The notes under the pieces are model-generated. The model was given only the letters and a program-made list of their open reading frames with translations. It was not told the DNA's origin and made no database searches. Positions 1 to 55,710 of a stretch of DNA of 64,000 bases are shown here, piece after piece (positions within the stretch are counted from its first letter, which is position 1; each line of letters begins with the position of its first letter). Source of the DNA: Corallococcus sp. AB032C (GTDB lineage Bacteria; Myxococcota; Myxococcia; Myxococcales; Myxococcaceae); the NCBI RefSeq assembly GCF_003668935.1, contig NZ_RAWP01000027.1, forward strand, positions 17,555 through 81,554, in the 5' to 3' direction. The position numbers and the translations under genes were made by a program.

Positions 1-9
1 GTCCCGCTG

Positions 10-2112
10 ATGGCCCGCCCGACCGCGCCCGCCGTGAAAACCACCCTCTTCCAGCGCCTGGGCGGCAAGGCCCCCCTGACGGCCGCCGTGCAGAAGCTCT
101 ACGCGCGGGTGATGACGGACGCGCTGCTCAAGCCCTACTTCCGCCGCGCGGACATGATCCCACTGCAGCGCCAGATGGTCGCGTTCCTCACCCAGCACCT
201 GGGCGGGCCCGTCGTCTACAAGGGCCCGTCCATGCGTGACGTGCACGCGCGCATGGAGCTCAAGCCCCATCACTTCGGGCGCGTCGCCGAGCACCTGGCC
301 ACCGTGCTGGATGAGCTGGACGTGCCGGGCTCCGTCGCCCGCGAGCTGCTGGCGGCCGTGGGCACGTTGCACGACGACATCGTGAGCAGGCCCGTCGCGA
401 AGGCCGCATCCCGGACCGCCGCCGTGAAGCGTGCTCCGGCGCGTGCCTCCCGGACGGAGGGACGCCGGGTCGCCACGGCGTCCGTGCCCGCGGCCCGGTC
501 CTCGCGGCGCCGTGCGCCCACGCCGCTCGAAGGCGCCCTGAGCGAGGCGGTGCTGGACGCGGCGAGCGTCAACCTGTTCATCCTGGACGCGGACCTGGCC
601 ATCGTCTTCTCGAACGCGTCCTCCTCGGAGGCCATCGAGCGCATCAGCCAGACGGCCGGCTTCCGCGACAGCGCGGGGGACGCGGGCAGCGACTTCCTCG
701 CCCACTTCGAGCACCAGCTGCGGATGGAGGAGGAGCGGCTGCTTGACCCCTCCGCGCTGCCGCACGAGGCCCACTTCGCGGTGGGCCCCGCCCTGCTCAA
801 GGCGCGCATCGACGGCATCTCGGGCCGGCGTGGAGCGCTCACCGGCTACGTGGTGACGTGGACGGACGTCACGGATCAGCAGCGCGCGGACACGGAATTG
901 GCGCGCCTGAGGGCCATGCTGGAGAACGCGCCCACCTGCGTGATGGTGGCCGACCTGGACCTGAAGATCGTCTACCTGAACCCCGCCTCGCGCCGGCTGT
1001 TGCAGCGCGTGGAGAAGCACCTGCCCATCGCCGCGGACCGGGTGCTGGGTTCCCACATCGACGTCTTCCACAAGGACGTGGCGTACCAGCGGAAGATCCT
1101 GGCCAACGACAAGAACCTGCCGGTGCGCGCGAACATCCCTATTGGGCCGGAGACCGCGGACCTGCTGGTGACGGCGGTGTACGACGGCCAGGGCCGCTAC
1201 CTGGGGCCCATGGTGACGTGGGAGCTGATCACGGAGAAGCTCGCCGTGCAGCAGCGCGAGAGGGATCTGGACAGCACCCTGCGCGGCATCTTCCAGGAGG
1301 TGACGCAGCACTCGCAGACGCTCGCCGCGTCGTCGCAGGAGCTGTCCAGCGTCAGCCAGCAGATGGTGAGCAACGCGCAGGAGACCGCGGCGCAGGCCAC
1401 GCAGGTGTCCGCCGGCGCCGAACAGGTCAGCCGCAACGTGCAGAGCGTCGCGTCCGGCATGGAGGAGGTCAACGCGAACATCCGCGAGGTGGCGCGCAAC
1501 GCGAGCGCCGCCGCCAAGGTGGCCTCGTCCGCGGTCAAGATGGCGGACTCCACGTCCAGCGTCGTCGGCAAGCTGGGGACGAGCAGCCAGGAGATCGGCA
1601 AGGTCATCAAGGTCATCACCTCCATCGCGCAGCAGACGAACCTGCTGGCGCTCAACGCGACCATCGAGGCGGCCCGCGCCGGCGAGGCGGGCCGGGGCTT
1701 CGCGGTGGTGGCCAACGAGGTGAAGGAGCTGGCGCGCGAGACGGCCCGCGCCACGGAGGACATCGGTCAGAAGATCGGCAGCATCCAGGGCGACACCGAG
1801 GAGGTGGTCAACGCCATCCTGGAGATTGGCGCCACCATCGGCCGCATCAACGAGCTGCAGACGTCCATCGCCTCCTCCGTGGAGGAGCAGACGGCCACCG
1901 CGGGGGAGATCCTCCGCAACGTGGGCGAGGCCGCCAAGGGCAGCCAGCAGATCTCCGAGAACATGGCCGCCGTGGCGGAGGCCGCGCGCAGCACCACCGA
2001 GGGCGCGGGCAGCACGCAGCGATCGGCGGTGGAGCTGGCCCACATGGCGCAGTCGCTGCAACGGCTGGTCGTGCAGGTGGACACCTCCGACAAGCAGACG
2101 CGGACGAAGTAG
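10..2112 (+). CDS. Chemoreceptor fusing an N-terminal truncated hemoglobin (2/2 Hb, group I) to two PAS domains and a C-terminal methyl-accepting chemotaxis (MCP) signalling domain
   Basis: Seen: ATG at 10 and a 700-aa ORF. The N-terminus aligns along its length with trHbN (LGG...Y(B10)...Q(E7)...LGGP..Y.G..M..VH(F8)). Two PAS-like segments follow. The C-terminus is a typical MCP HAMP/signalling low-complexity region ([21 protein letters not shown]...[30 protein letters not shown]). Confidence 0.85.
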
Positions 2113-25294: not shown

Positions 25295-26908
25295 CTACTT
25301 GTTGATGCGCACCATGGCCACGTCGTAGTGGCGCTCGGTCACGTAGCCGTTCGCGGCCTTGCCGGGGCGGTACATGTTCCCGGTCTTGTCATCCACGTAG
25401 AAGCGGTTGTTCGGGTTCGTGTCCTTGCCCGTGCTGGCGTTCTTCGTGCCCGGGTCGTGGAACGTGTAGTAGGTGCGGCCCTTGTCGTCGACGCCGCGGC
25501 CCGTGATGGTCACGAAGTGGTCCGTGAGGCCGTCCGCGTTGTAGCTCGCGTCCTTGTGGCTCACGCCGACGACCACCGGCTTGCCGGCCTCCAGCTGCTT
25601 GTCGATGTAGCTGCGGCCCTCGGCGGCCTTCTTCGAGTCCACGTTGAGCGCGCCGACGCCGTTCTCGCTCTTGCCCACCTGGATGCGGCGGTCGGGGCCC
25701 AGCACGGTCGCGCCGGAGTCACGCGCCATCGCCGTCGCGGCCTTGAAGCACGCCGTGTCGCTCGCGGTGTAGCCGTGGCCGTTCTCGAACTGGCTGTAGT
25801 ACGGCACCTTCACGTGCACCGCCGGCTTGTCCTTGGACGGGGCCACCTGCTCCGTGTTCGCGGGGGCCGCCTCCGTGGTGGGCTTGGAGGTGTTCGTGCC
25901 CTGCGTCGTGGGCTTGCCTTCCGTGGTGCCCGGCTTCGAACCGTTGTTCACGGACGGGGGAACCACGCCCGTGTTGGTGTTGGCCGGCTTCGTCGTGGTG
26001 CCCGACTTCTCCTGCTTCAGCATCGCGAGGGCGTCCTTCGCCTCCGACTTGAAGCGGTTGGCCACGCCCTTCTGCACATCCTTGGAGCTGCCGGAGAAGT
26101 GCACCAGGGTGCCGCTGGCGTTGGTGCGGCCGCGCTCGGCGTAGATGTCCTTGATGAGCTGCTCGTCGCTCACCTTCGCGGGGTCGCGCCCGTTGAGCGC
26201 CTTCTTGAAGATGTCGTCCGCCTTGCCCGGGCCGTGCTGCACGGAGGTGGACCAGGCCACGTCCCGCAGCGCCGCGGAGCGCTTGTCCAGGTCGATGCCC
26301 GTCGCCTTCTTGATGTTGGCGGCGCCCGCGTCGTAGTGCGTGGTCTTGATGTAGTCGTGCTGCGCCTTGTCGAAGCCCTTCGGGTCCTTCGCGGCCAGCT
26401 GCTTCCACGCGGCGGAGAACTCCGCGGTGCCCGGCTTGCTGCCCGACAGCGCCTTGTGGAACTCCGGGTTCGTCTTCTTCAGCGAGTTGACGAACGACTG
26501 CGCGGACCCGTTCGCGGAGGCGAACTGGTAGGAGCCGTAGGACACGCCGCCCTTGTCACCCTTGCCCGTGGACACGGTGCCGGGGCCGCGAGCCTCATAC
26601 TTGCGGCTCAGCCCGCCCAGCTCCCCGTTGGTCGCGCTGCTGGATGACGTGTTCGTCGCGGGCGTCGTCGCCTTCGCGCCGTCCGTGGACTGCGTGAAGC
26701 TGTCGCCCGACGTCTTCGTCCCCGCGCTCGACTTGTTGGTGCCCTTCGTGTCGAAGCCGTCCTGCACCTTCAGCGTCTGGCCAGCCAGGATCTTGTTCGG
26801 ATCCTTGATGTTGTTCGCCTTGGCCAGCGCGTCAACGGTGGTGTTGTAGCGCTTCGCGAGGCCGGAAAGCGTGTCACCCGACTGGATGCGAACGTTGGAG
26901 ACGGTCAC
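25295..26908 (-). CDS. LysM-domain protein with central unknown domain and C-terminal C39-like (papain-fold) peptidase domain; putative cell-wall hydrolase
   Basis: Seen: LysM ([43 protein letters not shown]). C-terminal VPYYSQ...[12 protein letters not shown]...DHFVTITG resembles Peptidase_C39_2. Preferred start is GTG at 26908, preceded by GAGGGG. The 105 nt further upstream to ATG 27013 are markedly lower in GC. Confidence 0.6.
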
Positions 26909-27101: not shown

Positions 27102-28136
27102 ATGTCCAGGATCCAACCGGAATTCAAAAGTTTGGCATTGCTGTTTGCCATTTGCGTCACGAGCGCGGTCCCGGACGCCTCGGCTCAGGGGTCCGAGGGA
27201 CTCACGGGGGTCTATTCGAACAAGGGCGGGACGCTCGCCATCGTCGAGGGCAGCAACGAGACGCTCGTGCACTTCTCGGGCTCGTTCCCGCAGGGCAGCA
27301 GCGCGGGCACCTGCGATTGCGCTTTGGTCGTCCAGAAGAAGACAGTCACGAATTGGTCACTTCATCAGGCGGGTGAGGAAGACGCCTGGACGCTGCGCGT
27401 CAATCCCAAGCAATTCGTCCTGGAGTCGGGTCCGTCACCGTCCTGTTGCGGCGCCGGCTACTCAGGCAAGGACACGTTCGCCCGGAGCACCTCCAAGCCA
27501 CTGAGCATCTGCAAGGTGAAGGTGTCCAAGGCGGTCTTCCACGCGTCTGACGCGGCCAACACGCCGCGCAAGGCGTTCGTGGTGTCTGGCGACGCGGTGG
27601 AGGCCTACGTCGACCCGGTGGAGCCGGACTTCCTCGCCGCGCGCTTCCAGGGCCCCCAGAAGGCCACGGCGGGGCTGCTCAAGCGCGAGGACCTGGACTG
27701 CGCGGCGGAAGGCGCGCCCACGGCCGCGAAGGCTCCCGTGGCCGCGGACAAGCTCCAGCCCTTCGCGGGGACGTGGGTGGAGTTGACGCGCCAGGGCAAG
27801 GGCTTCGTGGTGCTCAAGCCCTGCTCGGCCGCGACGCGCAGCTTCACCGTCAAGCCCGCGACGGGTGAGGTGGAGGTGCAGTTGGGGCAGGAGGCCACGA
27901 CGATGAAGGTGACATCCGTGGAGGCCGGCAAGGGCACCGGGACCTGGGTGCTGGGGCTCACGGCCGCAGACGGCAAGCCGGAGGCGCTCCAGTGGAAGAC
28001 GGCCGACGCCGCCAAGGGCACCGTGACCGTGAACAGCCCGGACCTCTTCTCCCAGAGCCACGACTACGTGCGCCAGGAGAAGAAGTCCGCCTTCCCGTCC
28101 AAGCAGGAGACGGGGTGCGACGAGTTCGAGCGCTAA
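27102..28136 (+). CDS. Secreted hypothetical protein
   Basis: Seen: signal peptide (LALLFAICVTSAVPDASAQ), 344 aa, several Cys pairs, no recognised domain. Confidence 0.6.
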   Translation: MSRIQPEFKSLALLFAICVTSAVPDASAQGSEGLTGVYSNKGGTLAIVEGSNETLVHFSGSFPQGSSAGTCDCALVVQKKTVTNWSLHQAGEEDAWTLRVNPKQFVLESGPSPSCCGAGYSGKDTFARSTSKPLSICKVKVSKAVFHASDAANTPRKAFVVSGDAVEAYVDPVEPDFLAARFQGPQKATAGLLKREDLDCAAEGAPTAAKAPVAADKLQPFAGTWVELTRQGKGFVVLKPCSAATRSFTVKPATGEVEVQLGQEATTMKVTSVEAGKGTGTWVLGLTAADGKPEALQWKTADAAKGTVTVNSPDLFSQSHDYVRQEKKSAFPSKQETGCDEFER

Positions 28137-29713
28137 CGCGCCCGTGAACGCCGCCGGGCCCGCAGGCCCCCACCGAGCAGCAGCGCGACGAGCGCACCGG
28201 ACAGGGGGCCACCCGCGGCCTGGCAGCTACCGTCATCCGAGGGCGTGCGCGGATCATCAATGGGATCCACGGGCCTGCCCGCGTCCACGGTCCCCGCATC
28301 GGGGGTGCCCGCATCCGCGCCAGCATCGGGCGTCCCGGCGTCGGTTCCGGCGTCCGTGCCCGCATCCGTCGCATGGAGCGGCGCGCAGGACGCGGCCTGG
28401 CCGGTGACCGCGATGCACAGCCGGCCATAGCGGCCCAGGCCTTCCATCCGGCCGTCCACGACCGCCACCATCACGCGCGTGGCGTCATCCGCGGCCACCT
28501 GGGCGCGCAGGGCGTCCGGCCCGTCCACGGTCGCCACCCGCAGTACGGCGTCATCCGTGACGGCCGCGACGACCAGGTGCACCGTGGCCGGATCGATGCC
28601 CGGCTCGGGCTCATACGAGGCGCCCACGAAGGACGCGCCGCCGGGGACCTCGAAGATCCGCGAGGCCGCCGCCGCGACGCGCACGCGGTCGAGCGTGGTG
28701 GGGAACTCCGCCGCCGTCTTCGCCACCGGTGCATACCCCTCCCCTCGCGCGTAGCCGAACCCCGGCGTCGCGCGCGGGCCGGTGCCCAGGTTCCAGGTGG
28801 CGAATTGGGCGAAGGCCGCGTCGAAGCTGGAGGCGAAGTCGCGGCGCAGACAGGTGTCCAGCAGCACCGGCCAGCGGGCCTCCGGCTGGCGCACGGACTC
28901 CTCCAGCAGCGCGACGAGCGCGCCGTCACCGTAGCGCTCGCCCACGAACTGGAAGAAGAGCCCCGCGCCGTAGATGAAGGTCACGCCGGGCCCTGCGGGG
29001 TCCAGCACCAGCGTGCTGTCCGGAGTCAGCATGTAGCCGCGGGTGAAGTGCTCCAGGTCGTCGAGCGCGGGCTCGAAGCGCTCGGTGGCCCAGACGGCGG
29101 TGCCCTCGGAGGCGACGCCGCCCAGGTCGGGCCGGTAGGCGGCCTGCACCGCGTGGAAGAACTCGTGGCTGGCCAGGATCTCCACGGCCTCTGCGTCGGA
29201 CGGGTAGTTGTAGCCCGTGAAGTCGTTCTCCTGGAGCATGAAGCCGGTGCAGCGCGTGACGCCCTCCAGGCAGGTCTCCTGCCGGAAGGCGCCGTCGCCA
29301 ATCCCCGCGAAGTCCACCAGGTACACGTCGAAGCGGCCGTCGCCGCCGTCGTCCCCGGCCGGATTCGTGTCGTCGGGCGGCAGGCGGAAGCCCAGGTCCA
29401 CGTAGAACGTCGCCACGCGTTCGTAGGTGCGCCCGACGAGCTCCACGAAGTCGGGCACGCCGCTGCCATCCGCGTCCGCTGGCGGCACGGCGTGGGTGCC
29501 CTGGCGGGTGAAGTGGATGCGGAAGCGCCCGCCCGGAGACACGACGGACTCCACCGTGTCCCCGGGCTCATAGCGCGGCGCCTGCGCGCCAGGCGAGGTG
29601 GGCCGCCCGGACTCGGCGACCCGCTTCTGTACGGCCTCCCGCTCGTGCGGGAGGCCACGCGGGGTTCCCGCGCCGGCCAGCAGCAGGAGCAGCGTGGGAA
29701 CCCCGGGGGTCAT
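28133..29713 (-). CDS. Secreted putative zinc metalloprotease with C-terminal MYXO-CTERM sorting signal
   Basis: Seen: HExxH (ASHEFFHAVQ). The C-terminus has Cys, then a hydrophobic stretch, then an Arg-rich tail (GSCQAAGGPLSGALVALLLGGGLRARRRSRAR). ATG at 29713 overlaps the upstream gene stop (ATGA). Contains a TDAGTDAG repeat. Confidence 0.7.
   Translation of the reverse strand: MTPGVPTLLLLLAGAGTPRGLPHEREAVQKRVAESGRPTSPGAQAPRYEPGDTVESVVSPGGRFRIHFTRQGTHAVPPADADGSGVPDFVELVGRTYERVATFYVDLGFRLPPDDTNPAGDDGGDGRFDVYLVDFAGIGDGAFRQETCLEGVTRCTGFMLQENDFTGYNYPSDAEAVEILASHEFFHAVQAAYRPDLGGVASEGTAVWATERFEPALDDLEHFTRGYMLTPDSTLVLDPAGPGVTFIYGAGLFFQFVGERYGDGALVALLEESVRQPEARWPVLLDTCLRRDFASSFDAAFAQFATWNLGTGPRATPGFGYARGEGYAPVAKTAAEFPTTLDRVRVAAAASRIFEVPGGASFVGASYEPEPGIDPATVHLVVAAVTDDAVLRVATVDGPDALRAQVAADDATRVMVAVVDGRMEGLGRYGRLCIAVTGQAASCAPLHATDAGTDAGTDAGTPDAGADAGTPDAGTVDAGRPVDPIDDPRTPSDDGSCQAAGGPLSGALVALLLGGGLRARRRSRAR
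28270..28370 (-). repeat. In-frame tandem DNA repeat encoding a (T/P)DAG(T/A) low-complexity linker
   Basis: Seen: repeated gcgtcc/ggcgtc... units; translation is TDAGTDAGTDAGTPDAGADAGTPDAG. Coordinates are approximate. Confidence 0.45.
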
Positions 29714-30747
29714 CACGGCAGGTAGGCCCACCGCAGGCGGATCGACCCGGCGCTGGTGGAAGAGCTCACCGAGCCCGTCGTGTCGCACTGCGACTGCACG
29801 GTGGGCTCATAGTAGGCCTTGACCTGCAGCTTCGCGTGACGGCCGTCCGCCAACTGGATGAGGAAGACCTTGTTCGTCATCTGCAGGCACTGGGCATAGT
29901 CCCAGAACGTGAGGGTCTGGGTCGCCGGGCTCTGGAGGCCGAACGGGTCCCCGCTGAACGTGCAGGTGTCGGGGGTGTAGTAGTTCTCCGCCTGGAACTG
30001 AGCATCGGTAGGCACGGACGTCACCGCTTCGAACGTCGTGCCGTCCGGCGTCGGTGCCACTGTCACGCACGACGGCCCGGACACGCCGCTGTTGAAGCGC
30101 ACGACGTACCGGCGCACCGCGACGTCCCACGCCGTCGAGCTCAGCGCGGCCTGATCATCGATGTCGACCTTCTGGAGCCCCGTCGGCGTGAAGCGCGCGT
30201 AGGTGTACGACTCCGGAACGCTGGTGCCACCCGCGCGGCCGTCCAGGAACGTGAGGTACTCGCCCTGGGTCGTGCCTTCCTCGGTCACGCCGCCGGTGGC
30301 GACGGTGGTCCGGAGCCGAAGCTTGTCGATGCTCTGCTCCGTGCAGGCCACGGCGTTGCGGCACAGCTCCGCGCCACCGTCCGTGGGAGTGCCGGCGTCG
30401 GTCTCCGTACCCGCGTCGGTCTCCGTGCCCGCGTCCGTGGTCGTACCTGCGTCCGTCGTCGTGCCCGCGTCGGTGGTGGTCCCGGCGTCGGTGGTGGTGC
30501 CCGCGTCCGTCTCCGGCTCTTCGTCCGGCGTCAGGGTGCGCAGCTCGCACTTCTTGTCCGCGTTGCAGGTCCAGGCCTGGCCCGCGGGGGCCGCGCCCTC
30601 ATCACGGCAGTCGAACGCATCCACGCAGTCGTCGCTGCTGCATCCCGGCGCCACCACGGCCAGCGCGAGGGCCGCCAGGGCCCCCATGCCGAACCAACGT
30701 GCACCGCTCTTCCGGACCGCCCCTTCGGGGTTGCTCATCGTCGTCAC
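29713..30747 (-). CDS. Lipoprotein with TDAGT tandem repeats
   Basis: Seen: signal peptide and lipobox (ALAVVAPGC). An 18-bp unit repeated about 7 times gives TTTDAGTTTDAGT.... The C-terminal about 200 aa form a Cys-containing domain. Confidence 0.65.
   Translation of the reverse strand: MTTMSNPEGAVRKSGARWFGMGALAALALAVVAPGCSSDDCVDAFDCRDEGAAPAGQAWTCNADKKCELRTLTPDEEPETDAGTTTDAGTTTDAGTTTDAGTTTDAGTETDAGTETDAGTPTDGGAELCRNAVACTEQSIDKLRLRTTVATGGVTEEGTTQGEYLTFLDGRAGGTSVPESYTYARFTPTGLQKVDIDDQAALSSTAWDVAVRRYVVRFNSGVSGPSCVTVAPTPDGTTFEAVTSVPTDAQFQAENYYTPDTCTFSGDPFGLQSPATQTLTFWDYAQCLQMTNKVFLIQLADGRHAKLQVKAYYEPTVQSQCDTTGSVSSSTSAGSIRLRWAYLP
30389..30512 (-). repeat. 18-bp in-frame tandem repeat, about 7 copies
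   Basis: Seen: gtgccggcgtcggtctcc-like units within the lipoprotein gene. Confidence 0.6.
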
Positions 30748-30832
30748 CTTTCGCCGCGGAGACCCGCCGCCGTTCGATGGGGACGATCTCTATTCGATAA
30801 CGATTATCATTTTCAATATCGACGATCCATTT

Positions 30833-33109
30833 TCAGGCCGAAGTGTCGCCGGGCGGCTTCGGTGCGTTGTGGGCGGACAGGCGGGGTTGTCCGCCGGGGC
30901 CCAGGAGTCCCTGCATGGCGTCGAAGAGGTTGAGGTTGGAGCCGCTGGGGAGGAAGACGACCTTGTCGAGGCCTCCGACGACGGCGGCCTGGGCCTGCGC
31001 GGCCACGGCCTTCACGAAGTTCTCCCCGCCCCCCAGGGATTCCACGCGTTGGCGGAACTGACTGGCCTCCACTTCCGCGAGGCGCGACTGGCGTTCCACC
31101 TCCAGGTCATTGAGGCGCTGCTGGCGCTCCAGGGCCACCTGGGTGGTGAGCCGTTCGCGCTCGAGCTCCGCCTCGGAGCGGATGCGCGAAGCGCGGGCGT
31201 CGGACTCGGCGCGGGCCAGGGCCTCCTCGCTCTCCACGCGGGCGCGCTCCAGCTGGGCCTCCGCCTCCACCTTGGCGCGGCTGAGCGTCTCCAGCTGGTG
31301 GTTGCGGTTCTGCAATTCGATGAGGGATTGGCGCTCCGCCTCCGACTTGCGGTGGCTGGCGATGTCAGCGAGCTGCTTCTCCTCCTCGCTGCGGATGCGC
31401 TTGAGCTCCGCGGCGGCCTGGGCCTCCTGGCGTGAGGCGTCCAGCTGGATCTGGATGTTGGTGTCGATGGCCTCGCGCAGCTTCAGGGCCGTCTTATCAT
31501 CGACGGGGGCGATGTCCTTGATGTCGATGTCGATGATGCGCAGCTGGTTCTCGGAGAAGAGGCGGTCCTTGCGAGCGCGTCCCGCGTCATCCATGCCGAA
31601 GATGGTGCGGCGGATGAGCACGCTGGCGTTCTTGTGGAAGGTCTCGAACTCGTTCTCCGCGGCGACCTGGCGGATGCGCGACGCGAGGTTCTCACACACG
31701 TACCCGATGAAGTCGTTCACCCGGAAGATGGCCTTGTCCTTCTCCGGGTCGCCCTGCACGTCGAACTGCCACTTGTATGAAAGCTTGATGCGCAGCCGCG
31801 CGTGGTCGCGAGTGGCCACCTCGAACAGGTCCGTGGCGAAGTCCGGCCCCAGCCGCAGCATCAGCACCTTGAGCTGACGCGGGCGCTTGGGCGTGCTGCC
31901 GGACAAGTCCAGGACGGTGACGTCCTCGTACGGGCGCAACATCACCTTCGCGGGGCCGAACTCCACGCGCGCGTGATTGGACTCGAAGTCGTTGATGAGG
32001 ACCGCCGTGTTGTCCTCGATGCGCAGCACGATGGCGCGCGTGCGGTCCCCCCTCTCCGTCGCGATCATGGGACGTGGCGCGCGGGCGTCCTTCGCCTCCG
32101 CGGGCGGCAGCGGCGGAGTGAGGCCCAGCAGGGCCTCCGCGTCCGGGGACAGGCGCTTCTCGTGCAGTTCCTGGTGCGCCTCCGGCATGAACTGGCAAGG
32201 CCCCTGGACGAGCGACACCTTGCCCGAGCGCAGGTCGCGCACGTACAGGCCTTCCCCCTGCCCCAATGACAGCGCGGCAATCTCCCGGTGGATGAGGACC
32301 TTCTCGCTGGGCACGTAGGTGCGAGGGCCGCGGACGATCCACGTGTCACCGGCCTTGCGTGCACGCGGCTCGCCGCCCTCGTTCTCGGAGAGGTCGTCCA
32401 GTGCCTGGAGCTTCAGGCCCTGCAGCTCCGACAGGACATGCTTGCGGCGCACGTCCCCTTCCAGCGCCTCGCCGGGTTCGAGGAAGAAGACATCCGGGCC
32501 GGAGACGACCTTGCGGCGGCCCTCCTGCACGCGGCCGGTGGCGCGGTCCACGGGATTGAGGATGACGCAGTACTCGGTCTCCTTGAGGACGCGGGCCTTC
32601 TCCAGCGACACGACGGTGACGGATTCGCCCGGCACGTAGCGGCCGGGGCCTCGCACCAGCCACTCGTCACCGGCTTCACGGCGGCGGGGAGCGTCTGGGA
32701 CGTGGGCGTCCGTGAAGGCGGTGAGCGCGCGCAGACGCAGCGCCTCCGACACGCCCAGGACGTATTCCGGGACGATGTCGCCCTCCAGCTCCTCGCCGGG
32801 GTACAGCGGGAACACCTTCGGGCCCACGCGGACCTCGCGGTCGCCCACCGCGACGCGGGCCTGGCCGAAGTCGTCCAGCGCCACCTGGCCGTCCACGCGC
32901 ACCACGGGGTTGCGCACCACGCACCAGCTGCCGGCGCCCAACTCCACCATCCGCTCCTTCGCCACGAGCGTCAGGTGCGCTTCGAGCGTCAGCACGCGCG
33001 GGCCTACTTCCATGAGCACGACTCCGCGGTTGGCGTCCTCGATGTATGCGTACTCGCGGTTCTTCAGGGAGATGCGCTGGATGGCTTCGGTGCTGGGGGC
33101 GGACGGCAT
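30833..33109 (-). CDS. Major vault protein (MVP) homolog
   Basis: Seen: strong collinear similarity to eukaryotic MVP recalled from memory. MVP repeats match (FPLYPGEELEGDIVPEYVL...AGDEWLVRGPGRYVPGESVTVV vs human FPLYPGEVLEKDITPLQVV...[22 protein letters not shown]). The shoulder domain matches (LRLGPDFATDLFEVATRDHARLRIKLSYKWQF). A cap-helix coiled coil follows, and the C-terminus LNLFDAMQGLLGPGGQP matches human INLFNTAFGLLGMGPEGQP. 758 aa. Confidence 0.85.
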   Translation of the reverse strand: MPSAPSTEAIQRISLKNREYAYIEDANRGVVLMEVGPRVLTLEAHLTLVAKERMVELGAGSWCVVRNPVVRVDGQVALDDFGQARVAVGDREVRVGPKVFPLYPGEELEGDIVPEYVLGVSEALRLRALTAFTDAHVPDAPRRREAGDEWLVRGPGRYVPGESVTVVSLEKARVLKETEYCVILNPVDRATGRVQEGRRKVVSGPDVFFLEPGEALEGDVRRKHVLSELQGLKLQALDDLSENEGGEPRARKAGDTWIVRGPRTYVPSEKVLIHREIAALSLGQGEGLYVRDLRSGKVSLVQGPCQFMPEAHQELHEKRLSPDAEALLGLTPPLPPAEAKDARAPRPMIATERGDRTRAIVLRIEDNTAVLINDFESNHARVEFGPAKVMLRPYEDVTVLDLSGSTPKRPRQLKVLMLRLGPDFATDLFEVATRDHARLRIKLSYKWQFDVQGDPEKDKAIFRVNDFIGYVCENLASRIRQVAAENEFETFHKNASVLIRRTIFGMDDAGRARKDRLFSENQLRIIDIDIKDIAPVDDKTALKLREAIDTNIQIQLDASRQEAQAAAELKRIRSEEEKQLADIASHRKSEAERQSLIELQNRNHQLETLSRAKVEAEAQLERARVESEEALARAESDARASRIRSEAELERERLTTQVALERQQRLNDLEVERQSRLAEVEASQFRQRVESLGGGENFVKAVAAQAQAAVVGGLDKVVFLPSGSNLNLFDAMQGLLGPGGQPRLSAHNAPKPPGDTSA

Positions 33110-33343
33110 GGCACACCTGCTCGCGGGAGTGGGGTTCAGCCGCGAGTCATTGCGAGCCCCATGCCGTCACCGCTCGCCCTGGAACGGCTCCGCACCGCAC
33201 CGGACTGGCGCGGACACTCGCTCCACTCCGGTGCGCGGTGTTCCAGACTGGAGCGCATTTCGAACAACCAGCGCCGGGGTTTCCGCATCGTCCGACCCGT
33301 GTGGCTGGTACCGTTTGATGAGCAGGTATGGAGAACCCTCACG

Positions 33344-34246
33344 ATGGCCTTCACTCCGCTCAACGCGCTCAACGCCTTCGTCGCCGTCGCACGGAAGCTG
33401 AGCTTCGTCGTGGCCGCGCGGGAGCTCGGCGTGTCGACGTCCGCACTCAGCCAGTCGGTCCGCCAGCTCGAGGAGCGCTTGGAGACGCCGCTGCTCATTC
33501 GCAGCTCGCGCAGCGTCGCCCTCACGGAGGCGGGCCAACGGCTCCTTGAAAACGCAGGGCCGGCGGTGGACCAGGCGCTGGAGGCCCTGCAGACGGTGAA
33601 GGCCAGGCGTGGCGAAGTGACCGGACGTGTTCGCATCACCGTTCCGACCGCCGCGAGTTCGCTGGTACTCGAACGACTGATCCCCCGGTTCGTCGAACGA
33701 CACCCAAAGGTCGAACTGGAGGTGAGCGTCGATAATCGACTCGTCGACCCTGTCGCCGAGGGTTTCGACGCCGGCATCCGGCTCGTCGAGTCCATTGACC
33801 GGGACATGGTGCACATCCGGCTCACGGGCCCTTGCCGCGTCGTTGTCGCAGGCGCGCCTTCGTATCTCGACAAGCGCGGTACCCCGCAGAAGCCCGCCGA
33901 TCTGCTCCACCATGATTGCCTCGTGTTCCGGCTGGGACCCGGCGGTGGACTCTGGGCGTGGGAGTTGGAGCGTGGAAAGAAGACGGTCCGCGTCCCCGTG
34001 CGTGGACCGGTCGTGCTCAGTGACAACGAGCTGCGCCGCACGCTTGCCATCGCGGGGGTCGGCTTGACTTACGGACTCGAGCCGACGATGTCCGAGGACC
34101 TCCGCAGCGGCCGCCTGCGGGTGGTGCTTTCCCAGTACGCCCCGACGGTGCCCGGCCTGTTCCTCTACTTCCCGAACCGGGCTCAAATCTCTCCCGCGCT
34201 GCGCGCCTTCGTGACGGTCGCCCGGGAGCTGGCCAGCAGTCGTTAA
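33344..34246 (+). CDS. LysR-family transcriptional regulator
   Basis: Seen: HTH (LNALNAFVAVARKLSFVVAARELGVSTSALSQSVRQLEERL). ATG at 33344 is in frame with ORF 32288..34246. Divergent from the MVP gene (235-bp spacer). Confidence 0.8.
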   Translation: MAFTPLNALNAFVAVARKLSFVVAARELGVSTSALSQSVRQLEERLETPLLIRSSRSVALTEAGQRLLENAGPAVDQALEALQTVKARRGEVTGRVRITVPTAASSLVLERLIPRFVERHPKVELEVSVDNRLVDPVAEGFDAGIRLVESIDRDMVHIRLTGPCRVVVAGAPSYLDKRGTPQKPADLLHHDCLVFRLGPGGGLWAWELERGKKTVRVPVRGPVVLSDNELRRTLAIAGVGLTYGLEPTMSEDLRSGRLRVVLSQYAPTVPGLFLYFPNRAQISPALRAFVTVARELASSR

Positions 34247-34315
34247 GCTTTCCTAAAGCGTCCGTCCCAGAACCGGCGGTTTCGCGGAGGTGCCTTCGCG
34301 CGTACACCTCTGCTC

Positions 34316-35371
34316 ATGCCGATGAAGACCACCGGATACGCGGCGCATTCCGCGGATGCGCCTCTTTCTCCCTATACCTTCGAACGCCGCGAGCTCCGGC
34401 ACAACGACATCGCGATGGAGGTCCTCTATTGCGGCATCTGCCATACGGACCTGCATATGGCGCGCAACGACTGGGGCGCGACCCGGTACCCGTTCGTTCC
34501 CGGTCACGAGTTTGTTGGACGTGTCATCGCCGTTGGCTCGGACGTTTCACGCCACAAGATGGGCGACGCCGTGGCGGTGGGATGCATGCTCGACAGCTGC
34601 CAGCGCTGCGACCAGTGCCGCAAGGGCGAAGAGCAGCTCTGTCGCGAGGGCCATACCCACACGTACAACGGCATGGACCGGGTGACCGGAGATCCAACCT
34701 ACGGGGGCTACTCGAAGTTCATGGTGGTCCGGGAGGAGTTCGCGCTCCGCATGCCGGCCGCGCTCGCCCTTTCGAAGGCGGCGCCGCTGCTCTGTGCTGG
34801 CATCACGACGTACTCCCCGCTACGGACGTGGGGCGTCGGTCCGGGGAGCCGCGTGGGGGTCATTGGACTGGGGGGGCTTGGCCACATGGCGGTCAAGTTC
34901 GCCGTCGCAATGGGCGCCGAAGTCACCGTGCTGAGCCGCAGCGCCGCCAAGGAAGCGGACGCCCTCGCGCTCGGTGCGGATCGCCTGTTGGTGTCGACGG
35001 ATGCCAAGGCGATGGCGAAAGCAGGCTCAAGCCTCGATCTCATCATCGACACGGTGCCGACGAAGCACGAGCTCCTCCCCTACCTGCCGCTCCTGGATAT
35101 CGACGGAACGCTCGTCATCGTGGGTCAGGTCGGGCCACTGGCCGAGACGAGCTCGGTGCCACTTCTCTTCGGCCGTCGCCGCATCGCGGGCTCGCCCATC
35201 GGCGGTCTCGCCGAGACCCAGGAGATGCTCGATTTCTGCAGCCGGAAGCAGGTGCTTCCAGATTGCGAGCTGATTCGCATCGATCAGGTGAACGAGGCCT
35301 ACGAGCGGCTCGGGCAAGCAGACGTTCGGTACCGCTTCGTCATCGACATGGCCTCGTTGCCACAGCCGTGA
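34316..35371 (+). CDS. Zinc-dependent NAD(P)-alcohol dehydrogenase (cinnamyl-alcohol dehydrogenase-like)
   Basis: Seen: CGICHTDLH zinc site, GHEFVGRV, structural-zinc Cys cluster (C...CQRCDQC), GLGGLGHMAVKFA Rossmann motif. Confidence 0.85.
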   Translation: MPMKTTGYAAHSADAPLSPYTFERRELRHNDIAMEVLYCGICHTDLHMARNDWGATRYPFVPGHEFVGRVIAVGSDVSRHKMGDAVAVGCMLDSCQRCDQCRKGEEQLCREGHTHTYNGMDRVTGDPTYGGYSKFMVVREEFALRMPAALALSKAAPLLCAGITTYSPLRTWGVGPGSRVGVIGLGGLGHMAVKFAVAMGAEVTVLSRSAAKEADALALGADRLLVSTDAKAMAKAGSSLDLIIDTVPTKHELLPYLPLLDIDGTLVIVGQVGPLAETSSVPLLFGRRRIAGSPIGGLAETQEMLDFCSRKQVLPDCELIRIDQVNEAYERLGQADVRYRFVIDMASLPQP

Positions 35372-35394
35372 AGTCACCCAAGGAATCCAACATC

Positions 35395-37696
<2,302 letters not shown>

Positions 37697-37819
37697 AGTG
37701 TCCAAGAACTCCTCCAGCGAAGCGGTTCCGTCTTGGCTCGATCCCCGGCGTTTGTTCGAATGCCTTCCTGTCAGCGGGCCAGGATGCTCTGGCCCGGTGG
37801 CCCCCACCCCGGAGGAAGC

Positions 37820-38047
37820 ATGAAGGCATCGCGACTGAAGCAGACGATTCCTGGATTCGCGCTGATCATCGGCATCATGGCGGGCACGGCCCTGGCCATG
37901 GTTCCCGGCTCGACGGCGGAGACGACTGATAGCCAGACGTCCGCGGTCCAGATGATCTGTTCGCGCACCTGCAAGCCGTGCTCGACCCAGATGGAGTGCG
38001 GCACGAGCGGCGGTTCCTGCGGGGTCTGGCGCTGCACCCAGCCGTAA
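37820..38047 (+). CDS. Small secreted Cys-rich peptide (75 aa, 7 Cys in the last 30 residues)
   Basis: Seen: GGAGG 6 nt before the ATG; signal peptide (FALIIGIMAGTALAMVPGSTA); CSRTCKPCSTQMECGTSGGSCGVWRC; followed by a 14-bp-stem hairpin. Confidence 0.55.
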   Translation: MKASRLKQTIPGFALIIGIMAGTALAMVPGSTAETTDSQTSAVQMICSRTCKPCSTQMECGTSGGSCGVWRCTQP

Positions 38048-38052
38048 ACACA

Positions 38053-38084
38053 AGCGCCTCCGAGTCCCAGGACTCGGAGGCGCT
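38053..38084. terminator. Strong hairpin terminator between convergent small-peptide gene and nadC
   Basis: Seen: perfect inverted repeat AGCGCCTCCGAGTCC-CA-GGACTCGGAGGCGCT followed by CTTCT. Confidence 0.6.
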
Positions 38085-38116
38085 CTTCTACGGATTCGTG
38101 AAGACCGCTGACCGCT

Positions 38117-46185: not shown

Positions 46186-46581
46186 CTACTTGCGCAGGCT
46201 GCCCACGGTGAGGTGCTTGGGCAGCTCCACTTCCGCGGGCACGCCGCCGCCGCCGCCGCCCTCGCCCACCGCCTCCACCTCTTCGTGAGACGCGCCGGTG
46301 GTGATGAGGCGGTACTTCTGCGACGCCTCGCGGTCGTGCTGGGCCTGCTCCGGATCCAACCGCGCGATGAGCTGCCAGAAGAGGGCCGCGTGCTCGCGCT
46401 CCTCGTCCATGACGTGCCGCAGGATGGCCTTCGCCTCCTCGTTGTCCGTCGCGTCCAGGTGCGCGGCGTAGAGGTTGATGGCGTCCAGCTCCGCCTCGAT
46501 GTTGAGCCGGATGGAGCGGGCCAGTTCGGAGTCCGTCAGCTTCCGGGGCACCAGCGAGTGGAACGGGTTCGTCTGCGGCAT
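46186..46581 (-). CDS. encC: Ferritin-like/rubrerythrin-like encapsulin cargo protein (EncC-like) with C-terminal targeting peptide
   Basis: Seen: EExxH-type diiron motifs (EAELDAINLYAAH, MDEEREHAALFW), a Gly-rich linker, and a C-terminal LTVGSLRK resembling encapsulin cargo-loading peptides. About 131 aa; ATG at 46581. Confidence 0.65.
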   Translation of the reverse strand: MPQTNPFHSLVPRKLTDSELARSIRLNIEAELDAINLYAAHLDATDNEEAKAILRHVMDEEREHAALFWQLIARLDPEQAQHDREASQKYRLITTGASHEEVEAVGEGGGGGGVPAEVELPKHLTVGSLRK

Positions 46582-55611: not shown

Positions 55612-55710
55612 GGTAGGGCCTCCGGACCTGGTGGCCGGCCCGGTCTTCAAAACCGGTGAGGGGCTGCGAGAGCAGTCCCTGGCGAGTTCGATTCCCGTGC
55701 CCTACCGCCA
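55612..55710 (+). tRNA. selC: tRNA-Sec (selenocysteine tRNA, anticodon UCA)
   Basis: Seen: 8-bp acceptor stem (GGTAGGGC/GCCCTACC) followed by G73 and an encoded CCA. Anticodon stem-loop CCGGT-CTTCAAA-ACCGG gives TCA. Long variable arm (GGGGCTGCGAGAGCAGTCCC), T-loop GTTCGATTCC, 99 nt. Overall collinear with E. coli selC as recalled from memory. Confidence 0.8.

What the first reader, a model, noticed from the sequence alone, without database searches (positions are those of the whole stretch)
28133..33109. Bacterial major vault protein homolog, followed on the same strand by a repeat lipoprotein and a MYXO-CTERM metalloprotease, and divergent from a LysR regulator
The 758-aa protein is collinear with eukaryotic MVP, from the N-terminal repeats through the shoulder and cap-helix to the characteristic C-terminal LNLF..GLLG motif. 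Vaults are eukaryotic particles. Bacterial MVP homologs are rare and essentially uncharacterised. Here the gene looks native (local GC and codon usage) and carries a dedicated divergent LysR regulator 235 bp away. It is followed on the same strand by two exported proteins whose stop and start overlap (ATGA). No TEP1/vPARP-like partners are present. This raises the possibility of a bacterial vault-like nanocompartment or a distinct MVP-based structure.
Basis: partly seen in the sequence, partly recalled or inferred. Interest (0 to 1): 0.75.

Follow-up and report, generated by a model that had tools for sequence, protein, structure and literature searches.

The report
Myxobacterial major vault protein, stand-alone gene
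This Corallococcus gene is a true, strongly conserved bacterial relative of the eukaryotic major vault protein, already noted in the literature, but it is a stand-alone gene with its own conserved promoter, and the LysR regulator and the two exported proteins beside it are unrelated, strain-variable neighbours.

Summary
The 758-aa ORF at 30833-33109 (-) is a real major vault protein (MVP). All five Pfam vault models pass their cut-offs, it matches rat MVP at E=4.5e-139 over the full length, and its AlphaFold model hits MVP structures at E~1e-50 against ~1e-8 for generic SPFH proteins. It has 7 N-terminal repeats, not 9; two of rat R3-R5, the PARP4-binding zone, are missing. It is under strong purifying selection (dN/dS 0.06-0.13).

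The proposed four-gene module is not supported:
- The LysR gene sits in a 4.47-kb insertion of lower GC3 (33275-37745). That insertion is absent from a strain with an identical MVP and from most Corallococcus species.
- The HmuY-like lipoprotein and HExxH protease have their own Fur-box-like site and are deleted in several species.
- No neighbour of MVP is conserved in any of 84 bacterial loci.
- No TEP1-, vPARP- or vault-RNA-like partner was found in the window.

What stays with MVP across at least four genera is about 165 bp of upstream DNA. It holds a sigma-54-type -24/-12 element and three 13-nt boxes.

The Corallococcus coralloides ortholog was listed in 2013 and placed in a 2023 tree, so the gene is already known. 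No experimental study of it turned up. It most likely assembles into a shorter vault-like shell; this is inferred, not shown.

The parts
30833..33109 (-). Major vault protein (MVP) homolog CDS, 758 aa
   Evidence: Five Pfam vault models pass their cut-offs. phmmer against rat MVP gives E=4.5e-139. Foldseek hits MVP structures at E=5e-50. dN/dS is 0.06-0.13. GC3 is 0.92.
31850..33085 (-). Seven MVP beta-repeat domains (aa 9-58, 59-119, 120-176, 177-227, 228-283, 284-360, 361-420). Two of rat R3-R5 are absent.
   Evidence: AF2 secondary structure, with pLDDT above 90 for aa 10-320. Pfam Vault_2 x2, Vault x2, Vault_4 and Vault_3. The double alignment of query 111-179 to rat R3 and R5. Segmentation.
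31499..31849 (-). Shoulder (SPFH-like) domain, aa 421-537
   Evidence: PF11978 MVP_shoulder, E=8.6e-45, covering positions 1-118 of 118. Invariant GPDF..T.DH..Y.W core.
30977..31498 (-). Cap-helix, aa 538-711, a long helix of about 170 residues with one break
   Evidence: AF2 helices 538-580, 588-691 and 695-711, aligned to the rat cap-helix.
30836..30976 (-). Cap-ring / C-terminal tail, aa 712-758, with NLNLF..GLLG
   Evidence: Alignment to rat residues 822-857. N727 and L728 are nearly invariant.
33110..33274 (-). About 165 bp of upstream DNA that accompanies MVP in every Corallococcus locus, whatever lies further upstream
   Evidence: Alignments A2 and A3. blastn breakpoints at 33274.
33151..33165 (-). 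Sigma-54-type -24/-12 element GGCATG-GGGC-TCGCA, 42-56 nt upstream of the ATG
   Evidence: It is the only match to GGCAYGNNNNTSGCA in the window. The GGCA and T.GCA positions are invariant in 18 upstream regions from Corallococcus, Hyalangium, Archangium, Vitiosangium and MAGs. No sigma-70-like site was found.
33200..33255 (-). Three copies of a 13-nt box CGC[GT]CCA[GC]TC[CT]GG (33243-33255, 33219-33231 inverted, 33200-33212): candidate binding sites for an enhancer-binding protein
   Evidence: Repeats. The matching conserved columns in A3. The function is inferred.
30796..30814 (-). Fur-box-like palindrome GAAAATGATAATCGTTATC in the 94-bp gap after the MVP stop. It belongs to the downstream unit, not to MVP.
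   Evidence: It matches 17 of 19 consensus positions, with 0 matches expected by chance. It is present in 9 of 9 loci that carry the downstream pair.
29713..30738 (-). HmuY-like probable lipoprotein with TDAGT repeats. A neighbour, not an MVP partner.
   Evidence: PF14064, E=2.6e-13. Present after MVP in 9 of 13 Corallococcus loci and in no other genus. dN/dS about 0.38.
28133..29713 (-). MXAN_6640-family HExxH metalloprotease with a MYXO-CTERM-like tail. A neighbour, translationally coupled to the lipoprotein gene through TGATG.
   Evidence: NF045524 at 240 bits. HEFFH at aa 183 and the C-terminal tail. Junction sequence.
33275..37745 (+). Strain-variable 4.47-kb cassette: LysR (33345-34246), ADH (34316-35371), SDR (35395-36234), AKR (36231-37100), NmrA-like (37097-37696)
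   Evidence: Absent from L081, which has an identical MVP. GC3 0.73-0.85. Found only in the window/L080 and L019.

Best explanation
The gene encodes a true ortholog of the major vault protein. It belongs to a deep lineage found so far only on bacterial contigs: Myxococcaceae, Archangiaceae and unnamed metagenomic relatives.

The protein is soluble and has no membrane segment. It keeps the whole assembly-relevant architecture: repeat R1 with waist residues, a beta-repeat wall, an SPFH-like shoulder, a cap-helix of about 170 residues and the cap-ring motif. It has only 7 wall repeats, because two of the three repeats that bind PARP4 in mammals are missing.

The most likely mechanism (inferred) is that it self-assembles in the cytoplasm. 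Lateral cap-helix and shoulder contacts would build a hollow half-shell, and two half-shells would pair through R1. The result would be a vault-like cage shorter than the 67-nm eukaryotic vault and lacking TEP1, vPARP and vault RNA.

The gene is a stand-alone transcription unit. The only DNA that stays with it across genera is about 165 bp upstream, carrying a sigma-54-type -24/-12 promoter and three 13-nt boxes. Expression is therefore probably switched by an unidentified enhancer-binding protein, not by the adjacent LysR.

The LysR-oxidoreductase cassette is an accidental, strain-variable neighbour. So is the Fur-box-preceded HmuY-like lipoprotein/protease pair, which probably scavenges iron or haem.
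For: Shown:
- Family membership.
- Seven repeats and the domain map.
- No hydrophobic segment; the maximum KD19 is 1.33.
- R1 residues equivalent to rat R9, N22 and D39 are R12, N27 and E43 (with the residue roles taken from PMC12280208).
- Strong constraint. dN/dS is 0.06-0.13, against 0.32-0.47 for the neighbours. Identity between families is 85-88%.
- Deep bacterial clade: the bipartition from the eukaryote plus cyanobacterial-type MVPs is found in 100 of 100 bootstraps. Clade naming rests.
- No conserved neighbour in 84 loci.
- The LysR cassette is an insertion.
- A Fur-box-like site is present, and the downstream pair has been deleted in several species.
- The -24/-12 element and the boxes are conserved across genera, and there is no sigma-70-like site.

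From established knowledge: recombinant MVP alone forms vaults (cited in bioRxiv 10.1101/2023.11.10.566534), and PARP4 binds repeats R3-R5 (PMC12280208).
Against: There is no experimental or computed evidence of oligomerisation here; only a monomer was modelled.

The AF2 model has low confidence in loop 401-421 (equivalent to the 'keyhole' loop), in 337-350 and in the tail.

The loss of two repeats and about 62% sequence divergence from rat MVP could change or abolish closed-cage geometry.

The NAD+/ADP-ribose pocket of human MVP is only half conserved: 6 of 13 positions are identical to rat.

The sigma-54 assignment rests on a consensus match plus conservation only. This strain has GGCATG rather than GGCACG. 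A match anywhere in the window is not improbable by chance (0.51 expected). No enhancer-binding protein gene was identified.

No terminator was found between MVP and the lipoprotein gene, so some read-through cannot be excluded.
Confidence: 0.6

Rival explanations
1. One reading: LysR, MVP, the lipoprotein and the MYXO-CTERM protease form one functional module. LysR would control MVP, and the exported proteins would be cargo or partners of an MVP-based structure.
For: The genes are adjacent, and MVP, the lipoprotein and the protease lie on the same strand. LysR is divergent at 235 bp, a common LysR-target arrangement. No terminator was detected after MVP.
Against: A strain with an identical MVP lacks LysR and its four oxidoreductase genes. 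The cassette has atypical GC3. In C. carmarthensis it lies 1.9 kb away.

The lipoprotein/protease pair is absent from 4 of 13 Corallococcus loci, with deletion scars, and from all Archangiaceae and all distant MVP loci. It has its own Fur-box-like site. It evolves 3-5 times faster than MVP.

The two proteins carry export signals, whereas MVP has none.
Confidence: 0.03
2. The protein acts like other SPFH-family scaffolds (HflK/C, flotillin, stomatin). It would form a single dome or ring docked on the inner membrane that organises or sequesters membrane proteins, not a closed two-halved vault.
For: The shoulder domain is SPFH-like, and the AF2 model also hits HflK/C, flotillin, prohibitin and stomatin cages at E of 1e-8 to 1e-5. 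Half-vaults exist as intermediates in eukaryotes (background knowledge).
Against: There is no transmembrane or hydrophobic anchor. The protein keeps a full wall of 7 repeats and the R1 repeat, including residues implicated in half-to-half contact. MVP structures match about 40 orders of magnitude better than SPFH cages.
Confidence: 0.12
3. The gene is a decaying or functionless relic of a horizontal transfer from a eukaryote into myxobacteria.
For: Myxobacteria carry other eukaryote-like genes, and HGT was proposed for bacterial MVPs (PMC3762200). Distribution within Myxococcota is patchy: no Myxococcus or Stigmatella hits appear among the listed hits.
Against: The ORF is intact in all 25 myxobacterial loci. 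dN/dS is about 0.1, and codon usage is native. The upstream promoter region is conserved across genera. The clade branches outside the eukaryote plus cyanobacterial-type group with 100% bootstrap and is only 37.7% identical to rat MVP over the tree alignment columns, whereas cyanobacterial-type MVPs are about 56% identical to rat.
Confidence: 0.03

Closest known systems
Eukaryotic major vault protein (rat/human MVP; PDB 4V60, 4HL8, 9BW5)
   Same: The order of domains is the same: R1, beta-repeats, SPFH-like shoulder, long cap-helix, then cap-ring with the NLF..GLLG motif. The sequence match is full length (E=4.5e-139), with 37.7% identity to rat over the alignment columns used for the tree. 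Both are soluble. The R1 residues R9, N22 and D39 are kept as R12, N27 and E43.
   Different: It has 7 repeats instead of 9; two of R3-R5, the PARP4 MINT-binding zone, are missing. No TEP1, vPARP or vault RNA was found nearby. Only 6 of 13 NAD+-pocket positions are identical. It is a bacterial gene with a sigma-54-type promoter. Particle formation is untested.
Cyanobacterial-type bacterial MVPs, usually annotated 'colicin uptake protein' (e.g. Nostoc sp. T09, Microseira wollei, Parabeggiatoa, Anaerolineae)
   Same: They are bacterial, lone MVP genes without conserved neighbours or vault partners.
   Different: They are about 850-900 aa with the full repeat set, and about 55% identical to rat MVP. 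They group with eukaryotic MVPs in the tree. The window protein is only 38-40% identical to them and lies on the other side of the deepest split.
Corallococcus coralloides H8MNI3 and Melittangium boletus MVP homologs in the literature
   Same: They are orthologs of the window protein (97-99% and 86-87% identity). H8MNI3 is listed as a putative MVP in PMC3762200, and both appear in the tree of bioRxiv 10.1101/2023.11.10.566534.
   Different: The passages of those papers that I read gave only sequence, model and tree placement. I found no mention of the repeat count, genomic context, promoter or selection, but I did not read the papers in full.
SPFH/band-7 cages (HflK/C, flotillin, prohibitin, stomatin)
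   Same: They share the shoulder fold and a following long helix that builds a closed dome.
   Different: They are membrane-anchored and lack an MVP repeat wall. Their structural match is far weaker (E~1e-8 against 1e-50).

Membership tests
Major vault protein family (Pfam Vault repeats + MVP_shoulder) | Array of MVP beta-repeat domains at the N-terminus | tested here: met
   PF17794 (1.6e-31), PF01505 (2.1e-30), PF17795 (1.8e-19) and PF17796 (3.2e-06) are all above the gathering score. AF2 shows 7 repeats against 9 in rat.
Major vault protein family (Pfam Vault repeats + MVP_shoulder) | MVP shoulder (SPFH-like) domain after the repeats | tested here: met
   PF11978 at 152 bits, E=8.6e-45, full-length match.
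Major vault protein family (Pfam Vault repeats + MVP_shoulder) | Long cap-helix followed by a cap-ring C-terminus, collinear with solved MVPs | tested here: met
   phmmer alignment of query 111-742 to rat 214-857. AF2 helices span 538-711. The top 12 Foldseek hits are all full-length MVP/vault structures at E<=3e-42.
Major vault protein family (Pfam Vault repeats + MVP_shoulder) | Self-assembly into a hollow, two-halved barrel (D39 78-mer in mammals) | not testable with these tools
   Only a monomer could be modelled. This needs expression plus EM, or cryo-ET.
Vault ribonucleoprotein particle (eukaryotic type) | Minor components TEP1 (TROVE/NACHT/WD40/DUF4062) and vPARP/PARP4 | tested here: not met
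   No such Pfam domains were found in the called genes within +/-10 kb or in 20 further large ORFs of the window. The R3-R5 PARP4-binding repeats are reduced to one. The rest of the genome was not available.
Vault ribonucleoprotein particle (eukaryotic type) | Vault RNA | tested here: not met
   An Rfam gathering-threshold scan of the 64-kb window found only tRNA-Sec. The rest of the genome was not searched.
Vault ribonucleoprotein particle (eukaryotic type) | NAD+/ADP-ribose pocket in the shoulder (human R437, R504, K506, R507, P508, H509, R511, L517, D521, F522, W545, P565, K573) | tested here: inconclusive
   K408, R409, P410, D423, F424 and W447 are kept. The changes are R504T, H509R, R511L, L517R, P565N and K573E, and the R437 region is poorly aligned. 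Several of these positions also vary among eukaryotes (residue list from PMC12280208).
SPFH/band-7 membrane scaffolds | N-terminal membrane anchor (TM helix or hairpin) | tested here: not met
   The maximum Kyte-Doolittle 19-residue mean is 1.33, in the C-terminal Ala/Val-rich stretch. There is no N-terminal hydrophobic segment.
LysR-regulated divergent operon | Regulator and target co-inherited as a unit | tested here: not met
   LysR is absent in L081, which has an identical MVP. It is present in 2 of 13 Corallococcus loci and in none of the 12 other myxobacterial loci, Archangiaceae included.
Sigma-54-dependent promoter | GG at -24 and GC at -12 with fixed spacing (TGGCACG-N4-TTGCW), conserved upstream of the gene | tested here: met
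   GGCA[CT]G-N4-T[CG]GCA is invariant in spacing and core bases in the upstream regions of 22 of 23 myxobacterial loci examined, from at least 4 genera; the exception is L022. It lies about 43 nt before the start codon.
Sigma-54-dependent promoter | Dependence on RpoN and an enhancer-binding protein | not testable with these tools
   Three conserved 13-nt boxes lie 35-90 nt upstream of the -24 element and are candidate UAS. No EBP gene was identified nearby.

The most novel reading that the evidence does not exclude
Myxobacteria build a true vault-like protein cage from a 7-repeat MVP without TEP1, vPARP or vault RNA. The cage would be switched on through a sigma-54 enhancer-binding protein. 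The protein belongs to an old, bacteria-only MVP lineage that is sister to the eukaryotic one. That would give a genetically tractable bacterial model for asking what a 'minimal' vault shell is for, and whether vaults originated in bacteria.
Probability: 0.45. Interest if true: 0.7.

Novelty: already known. Interest (0 to 1): 0.4.

Why it matters
Vault function has been an open question for about 40 years. A bacterial MVP that is strongly constrained, stands alone and lacks all known minor vault components suggests that the shell itself has a selectable role.

The points below were not mentioned in the passages of the three papers I read, and each is a concrete experimental handle:
- the 7-repeat architecture, which lacks the PARP4-binding repeats;
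- the conserved sigma-54-type control region;
- the clean separation of MVP from its neighbours.

Still, the existence, fold prediction and rough phylogenetic placement of the Corallococcus MVP are already published. The specific new idea in the finding, a LysR-MVP-exported-protein module, does not hold.

Tried and rejected
1. Conserved partner genes. tblastn of 13 window proteins against 81 loci, and all-against-all clustering of 3,183 ORFs, found no neighbour shared beyond Corallococcus synteny. The best cluster in the 56 cyanobacterial-type loci was a class-V aminotransferase, in 7 loci at variable distance. Two further distant bacterial loci again had different neighbours.

2. Vault partners. 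No TROVE, PARP, vWA, NACHT, WD40 or DUF4062 domain was found in the scanned ORFs. Rfam gave no vault RNA or Y RNA.

3. Defence or phage link. PADLOC and PHROGs gave no hit. The IMG/VR pattern scan confirmed no relative; its sensitivity is limited.

4. A 5'-UTR hairpin between the -12 element and the start codon looked plausible by eye. RNAalifold on 20 sequences predicted no consensus pairs, so I dropped it.

5. NAD+-pocket conservation as a functional test was inconclusive.

6. Sigma-70 promoter and terminator scans around MVP gave nothing above shuffles.

7. NCBIfam has no model for this protein. That probably explains why most deposited orthologs are called 'hypothetical protein'.


Full report
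**1. What is in the sequence**

The window has about 70% GC. It is 100% identical over 22.3 kb to a Corallococcus assembly (GCA_013155175.1, contig JABJTS010000010.1).

The ORF at 30833-33109 (-) encodes 758 aa. It hits Pfam Vault_2, Vault, Vault_3, Vault_4 and MVP_shoulder, all above the curated cut-offs. It aligns to rat MVP (4V60, 4HL8, 2QZV) with E=4.5e-139 from residue 8 to 742. The alignment includes the C-terminal SNLNLFDAMQGLLG against rat SPINLFSTAFGLLG.

An AlphaFold2 model built on a 65-sequence alignment has mean pLDDT 77.5, and above 90 through most of the repeat wall. With Foldseek its top 12 hits are all full-length MVP/vault structures, at E=5e-50 to 3e-42. Generic SPFH cages (HflK/C, flotillin, prohibitin, stomatin) appear only at about 1e-8 or weaker. 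This is a real MVP.

**2. Anatomy**

The model and the Pfam layout give these parts:
- seven beta-repeats: aa 9-58, 59-119, 120-176, 177-227, 228-283, 284-360, 361-420;
- a shoulder, aa 421-537;
- a cap-helix, aa 538-711;
- a cap-ring and tail, aa 712-758.

Rat MVP has nine repeats. Query residues 111-179 align to both rat R3 and rat R5, and the shoulder is offset by about 100 residues. So two of the three R3-R5 repeats are missing. In human vaults the PARP4 MINT domain binds exactly at MVP repeats 3-5 (PMC12280208). Their absence fits the lack of a vPARP partner.

The R1 residues described as forming the polar network between vault halves (R9, N22, D39; PMC12280208) correspond to R12, N27 and E43 here.

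The protein has no hydrophobic segment long enough for a membrane anchor.

Of the 13 residues lining the human NAD+/ADP-ribose pocket, six are identical here and the rest differ. Several of these positions also vary among eukaryotes, so nucleotide binding cannot be judged.

**3. Is it a working gene?**

Yes. GC3 is 0.92, like the flanking native genes.

dN/dS against six orthologs is 0.06-0.13. The two downstream genes give 0.32-0.47.

Orthologs are 93-99% identical within Corallococcus and 85-88% identical in Hyalangium, Archangium, Vitiosangium and Melittangium.

**4. The neighbours are not partners**

*LysR.* Two deposited strains encode exactly the same 758-aa MVP. One, which matches the window, has LysR, ADH, SDR, AKR and NmrA-like genes upstream. 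The other has none of them. blastn places the difference at window 33275-37745 (4,471 bp), which 150 bp replace in the other strain.
- The cassette genes have GC3 of 0.73-0.85, against 0.90-0.97 around them.
- The cassette occurs in only 2 of 13 Corallococcus loci. In C. carmarthensis it lies 1.9 kb from MVP.
- In C. interemptor, C. coralloides and C. exercitus the DNA next to the MVP upstream block is homologous to window 37711-38088, on the far side of the cassette. The cassette is therefore an insertion.
- LysR is co-directional with the four oxidoreductase genes and most likely regulates them (inference).

*Lipoprotein and protease.* These are the HmuY-like lipoprotein (PF14064, E=2.6e-13) and the MXAN_6640-family HExxH protease (NF045524, 240 bits). 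They follow MVP in 9 of 13 Corallococcus loci and in no other genus.
- Species without them keep scars: a fragment of the intergenic palindrome and the last codons of the protease. The pair was therefore deleted while MVP stayed intact.
- The 94-bp gap after the MVP stop holds GAAAATGATAATCGTTATC (30796-30814). It matches 17 of 19 positions of the classical Fur box, with zero matches in 100 shuffles. It is present in all nine loci that carry the pair.
- The pair thus looks like an independent unit regulated by iron, perhaps for haem scavenging (inference from HmuY family knowledge).
- The junction between the two genes is TGATG, a one-base overlap at 29713, not ATGA.

*Wider comparison.* All-against-all clustering of ORFs from 81 loci found no gene that accompanies MVP beyond local Corallococcus synteny. 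This held for the Archangiaceae and for the 56 cyanobacterial-type loci. Two more distant bacterial contigs again had unrelated neighbours.

*Vault partners.* No TROVE, PARP, vWA, NACHT, WD40 or DUF4062 domain was seen in the window's ORFs. Rfam gave no vault RNA. There was no PADLOC, PHROGs or IMG/VR link.

**5. What does travel with MVP**

The 165 bp upstream of the ATG (33110-33274) are conserved in every Corallococcus locus, whatever lies beyond them.

Within this block, GGCA[CT]G-N4-T[CG]GCA is invariant in its core bases and spacing. In the window it is GGCATGGGGCTCGCA at 33151-33165. This holds in 18 aligned upstream regions from at least four genera, and the element always lies about 43 nt before the start codon. 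It matches the sigma-54 consensus TGGCACG-N4-TTGCW. It is the only match in the window, with 0.51 expected over 128 kb, or roughly 0.001 for this one intergenic region and strand.

Upstream of it lie three copies of a 13-nt box, CGC[GT]CCA[GC]TC[CT]GG, two direct and one inverted (33200-33255). These coincide with conserved columns across genera. No sigma-70-like promoter was found.

I infer a sigma-54 promoter activated by an unidentified enhancer-binding protein. That would be typical for regulated genes in myxobacteria, but it is not demonstrated. A suspected 5'-UTR hairpin was not supported by RNAalifold.

**6. Evolutionary placement**

An exhaustive HMMER scan of 1.84 billion cluster representatives found 210 clusters at E<=1e-30.

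I built a neighbour-joining tree of 75 full-length sequences (577 columns, Kimura distances). It splits into two groups:
- Group A: the myxobacterial clade plus unnamed metagenomic proteins that sit on bacterial contigs.
- Group B: eukaryotes (Anaeramoeba, kinetoplastids, a sponge, rat) together with the cyanobacterial-type bacterial MVPs.

The A/B split, the myxobacterial clade and the cyanobacterial-type clade each appear in 100 of 100 bootstraps.

The window protein is 37.7% identical to rat MVP and 39% to a Nostoc MVP. The Nostoc-type proteins are about 56% identical to rat.

This reproduces published topologies (bioRxiv 10.1101/872010; bioRxiv 10.1101/2023.11.10.566534). It argues against a recent transfer from eukaryotes into myxobacteria. 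The tree is unrooted and uses a simple method, so the direction of ancestry remains open.

**7. Mechanism**

Shown: a soluble, intact, highly constrained MVP with every domain that mediates vault assembly in eukaryotes.

Inferred from the behaviour of eukaryotic MVP, which forms vaults on its own: cytoplasmic self-assembly into a hollow shell whose wall is two repeats shorter per half, without the known minor components. The cargo and the physiological role are unknown.

I put about 0.6 on the overall picture and about 0.45 on the specific claim of a closed, vault-like cage. The main rival is an SPFH-like single dome at the membrane (about 0.12). The lack of any anchor and the conserved R1 repeat disfavour it.

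**8. Novelty and score**

Corallococcus coralloides H8MNI3, the ortholog of this protein, is named as a putative MVP in Daly et al. 2013 (PMC3762200). Bacterial MVPs in Myxococcales, Cytophagales and Oscillatoriales are the topic of a 2019 preprint. C. coralloides and Melittangium MVPs appear in a 2023 preprint's tree. My library searches turned up no experimental study of a bacterial MVP.

The feature is therefore already known as a gene and family member. What this analysis adds is the repeat count, the promoter region, the selection data and the refutation of the neighbour-based module.

Interest is 0.4. It is a worthwhile experimental target bearing on an old open question, but it would not surprise a specialist, and the part of the finding that was new does not hold.

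Noticed in passing
window 30796-30814 (-), with genes 29713-30738 (-) and 28133-29713 (-): A Fur-box-like palindrome (17 of 19 consensus positions) precedes an HmuY-like lipoprotein and an MXAN_6640-family HExxH, MYXO-CTERM protease. This is probably an iron- or haem-scavenging unit. It is conserved in 9 loci and cleanly deleted in four Corallococcus species, with scars in L001 and L003.
   Followed up: partly
window 33275-37745 (+): A 4.47-kb cassette carrying LysR, Zn-ADH, SDR, aldo-keto reductase and NmrA-like genes. Its GC3 is lower (0.73-0.85). It is present in this strain and in C. carmarthensis but absent from a strain with an identical MVP, so it is a recent insertion next to the MVP control region.
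   Followed up: yes
window 37820-38047 (+): A 75-aa ORF with a signal-peptide-like N-terminus and a Cys-rich C-terminus (CSRTCKPCSTQMECGTSGGSCGVWRC). It was found only in some Corallococcus species and has no Pfam hit. It may be a secreted peptide.
   Followed up: partly
window 55612-55706 (+): A selenocysteine tRNA (Rfam RF01852, 70.5 bits, E=2.2e-12). It was the only Rfam match in the window.
   Followed up: no
window 46192-46581 (-): A 130-aa EncFtn-like/rubrerythrin-like protein (PF22277, E=4.1e-09). Members of this family are often encapsulin cargo. No encapsulin shell gene was seen among the ORFs scanned. It lies 13 kb from MVP, and there is no evidence of a link.
   Followed up: no
window 1-2112 (+): A globin-coupled chemoreceptor (Bac_globin, PAS and MCPsignal domains) followed by ABC1 kinase-like and CheB genes. 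The ORF runs off the window start.
   Followed up: no
L024-L079 (cyanobacteria, Chloroflexota, Thiotrichaceae, one Actinomycetota MAG): The 9-repeat bacterial MVPs, mostly annotated 'colicin uptake protein', are about 55% identical to rat MVP. That is closer to rat than several protist MVPs are, and they fall among the eukaryotic MVPs (group B) in the tree. Most hosts are filamentous or gliding bacteria, as a 2019 preprint noted. This fits gene transfer between eukaryotes and bacteria in one direction or the other.
   Followed up: partly
window 27102-28136 (+) and 25295-26908 (-): A 344-aa secreted protein with no family match lies convergent with the protease gene. Next to it is a LysM plus T6SS VgrG3-like C-terminal domain protein, probably a peptidoglycan hydrolase. 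Both are part of Corallococcus-specific synteny.
   Followed up: no
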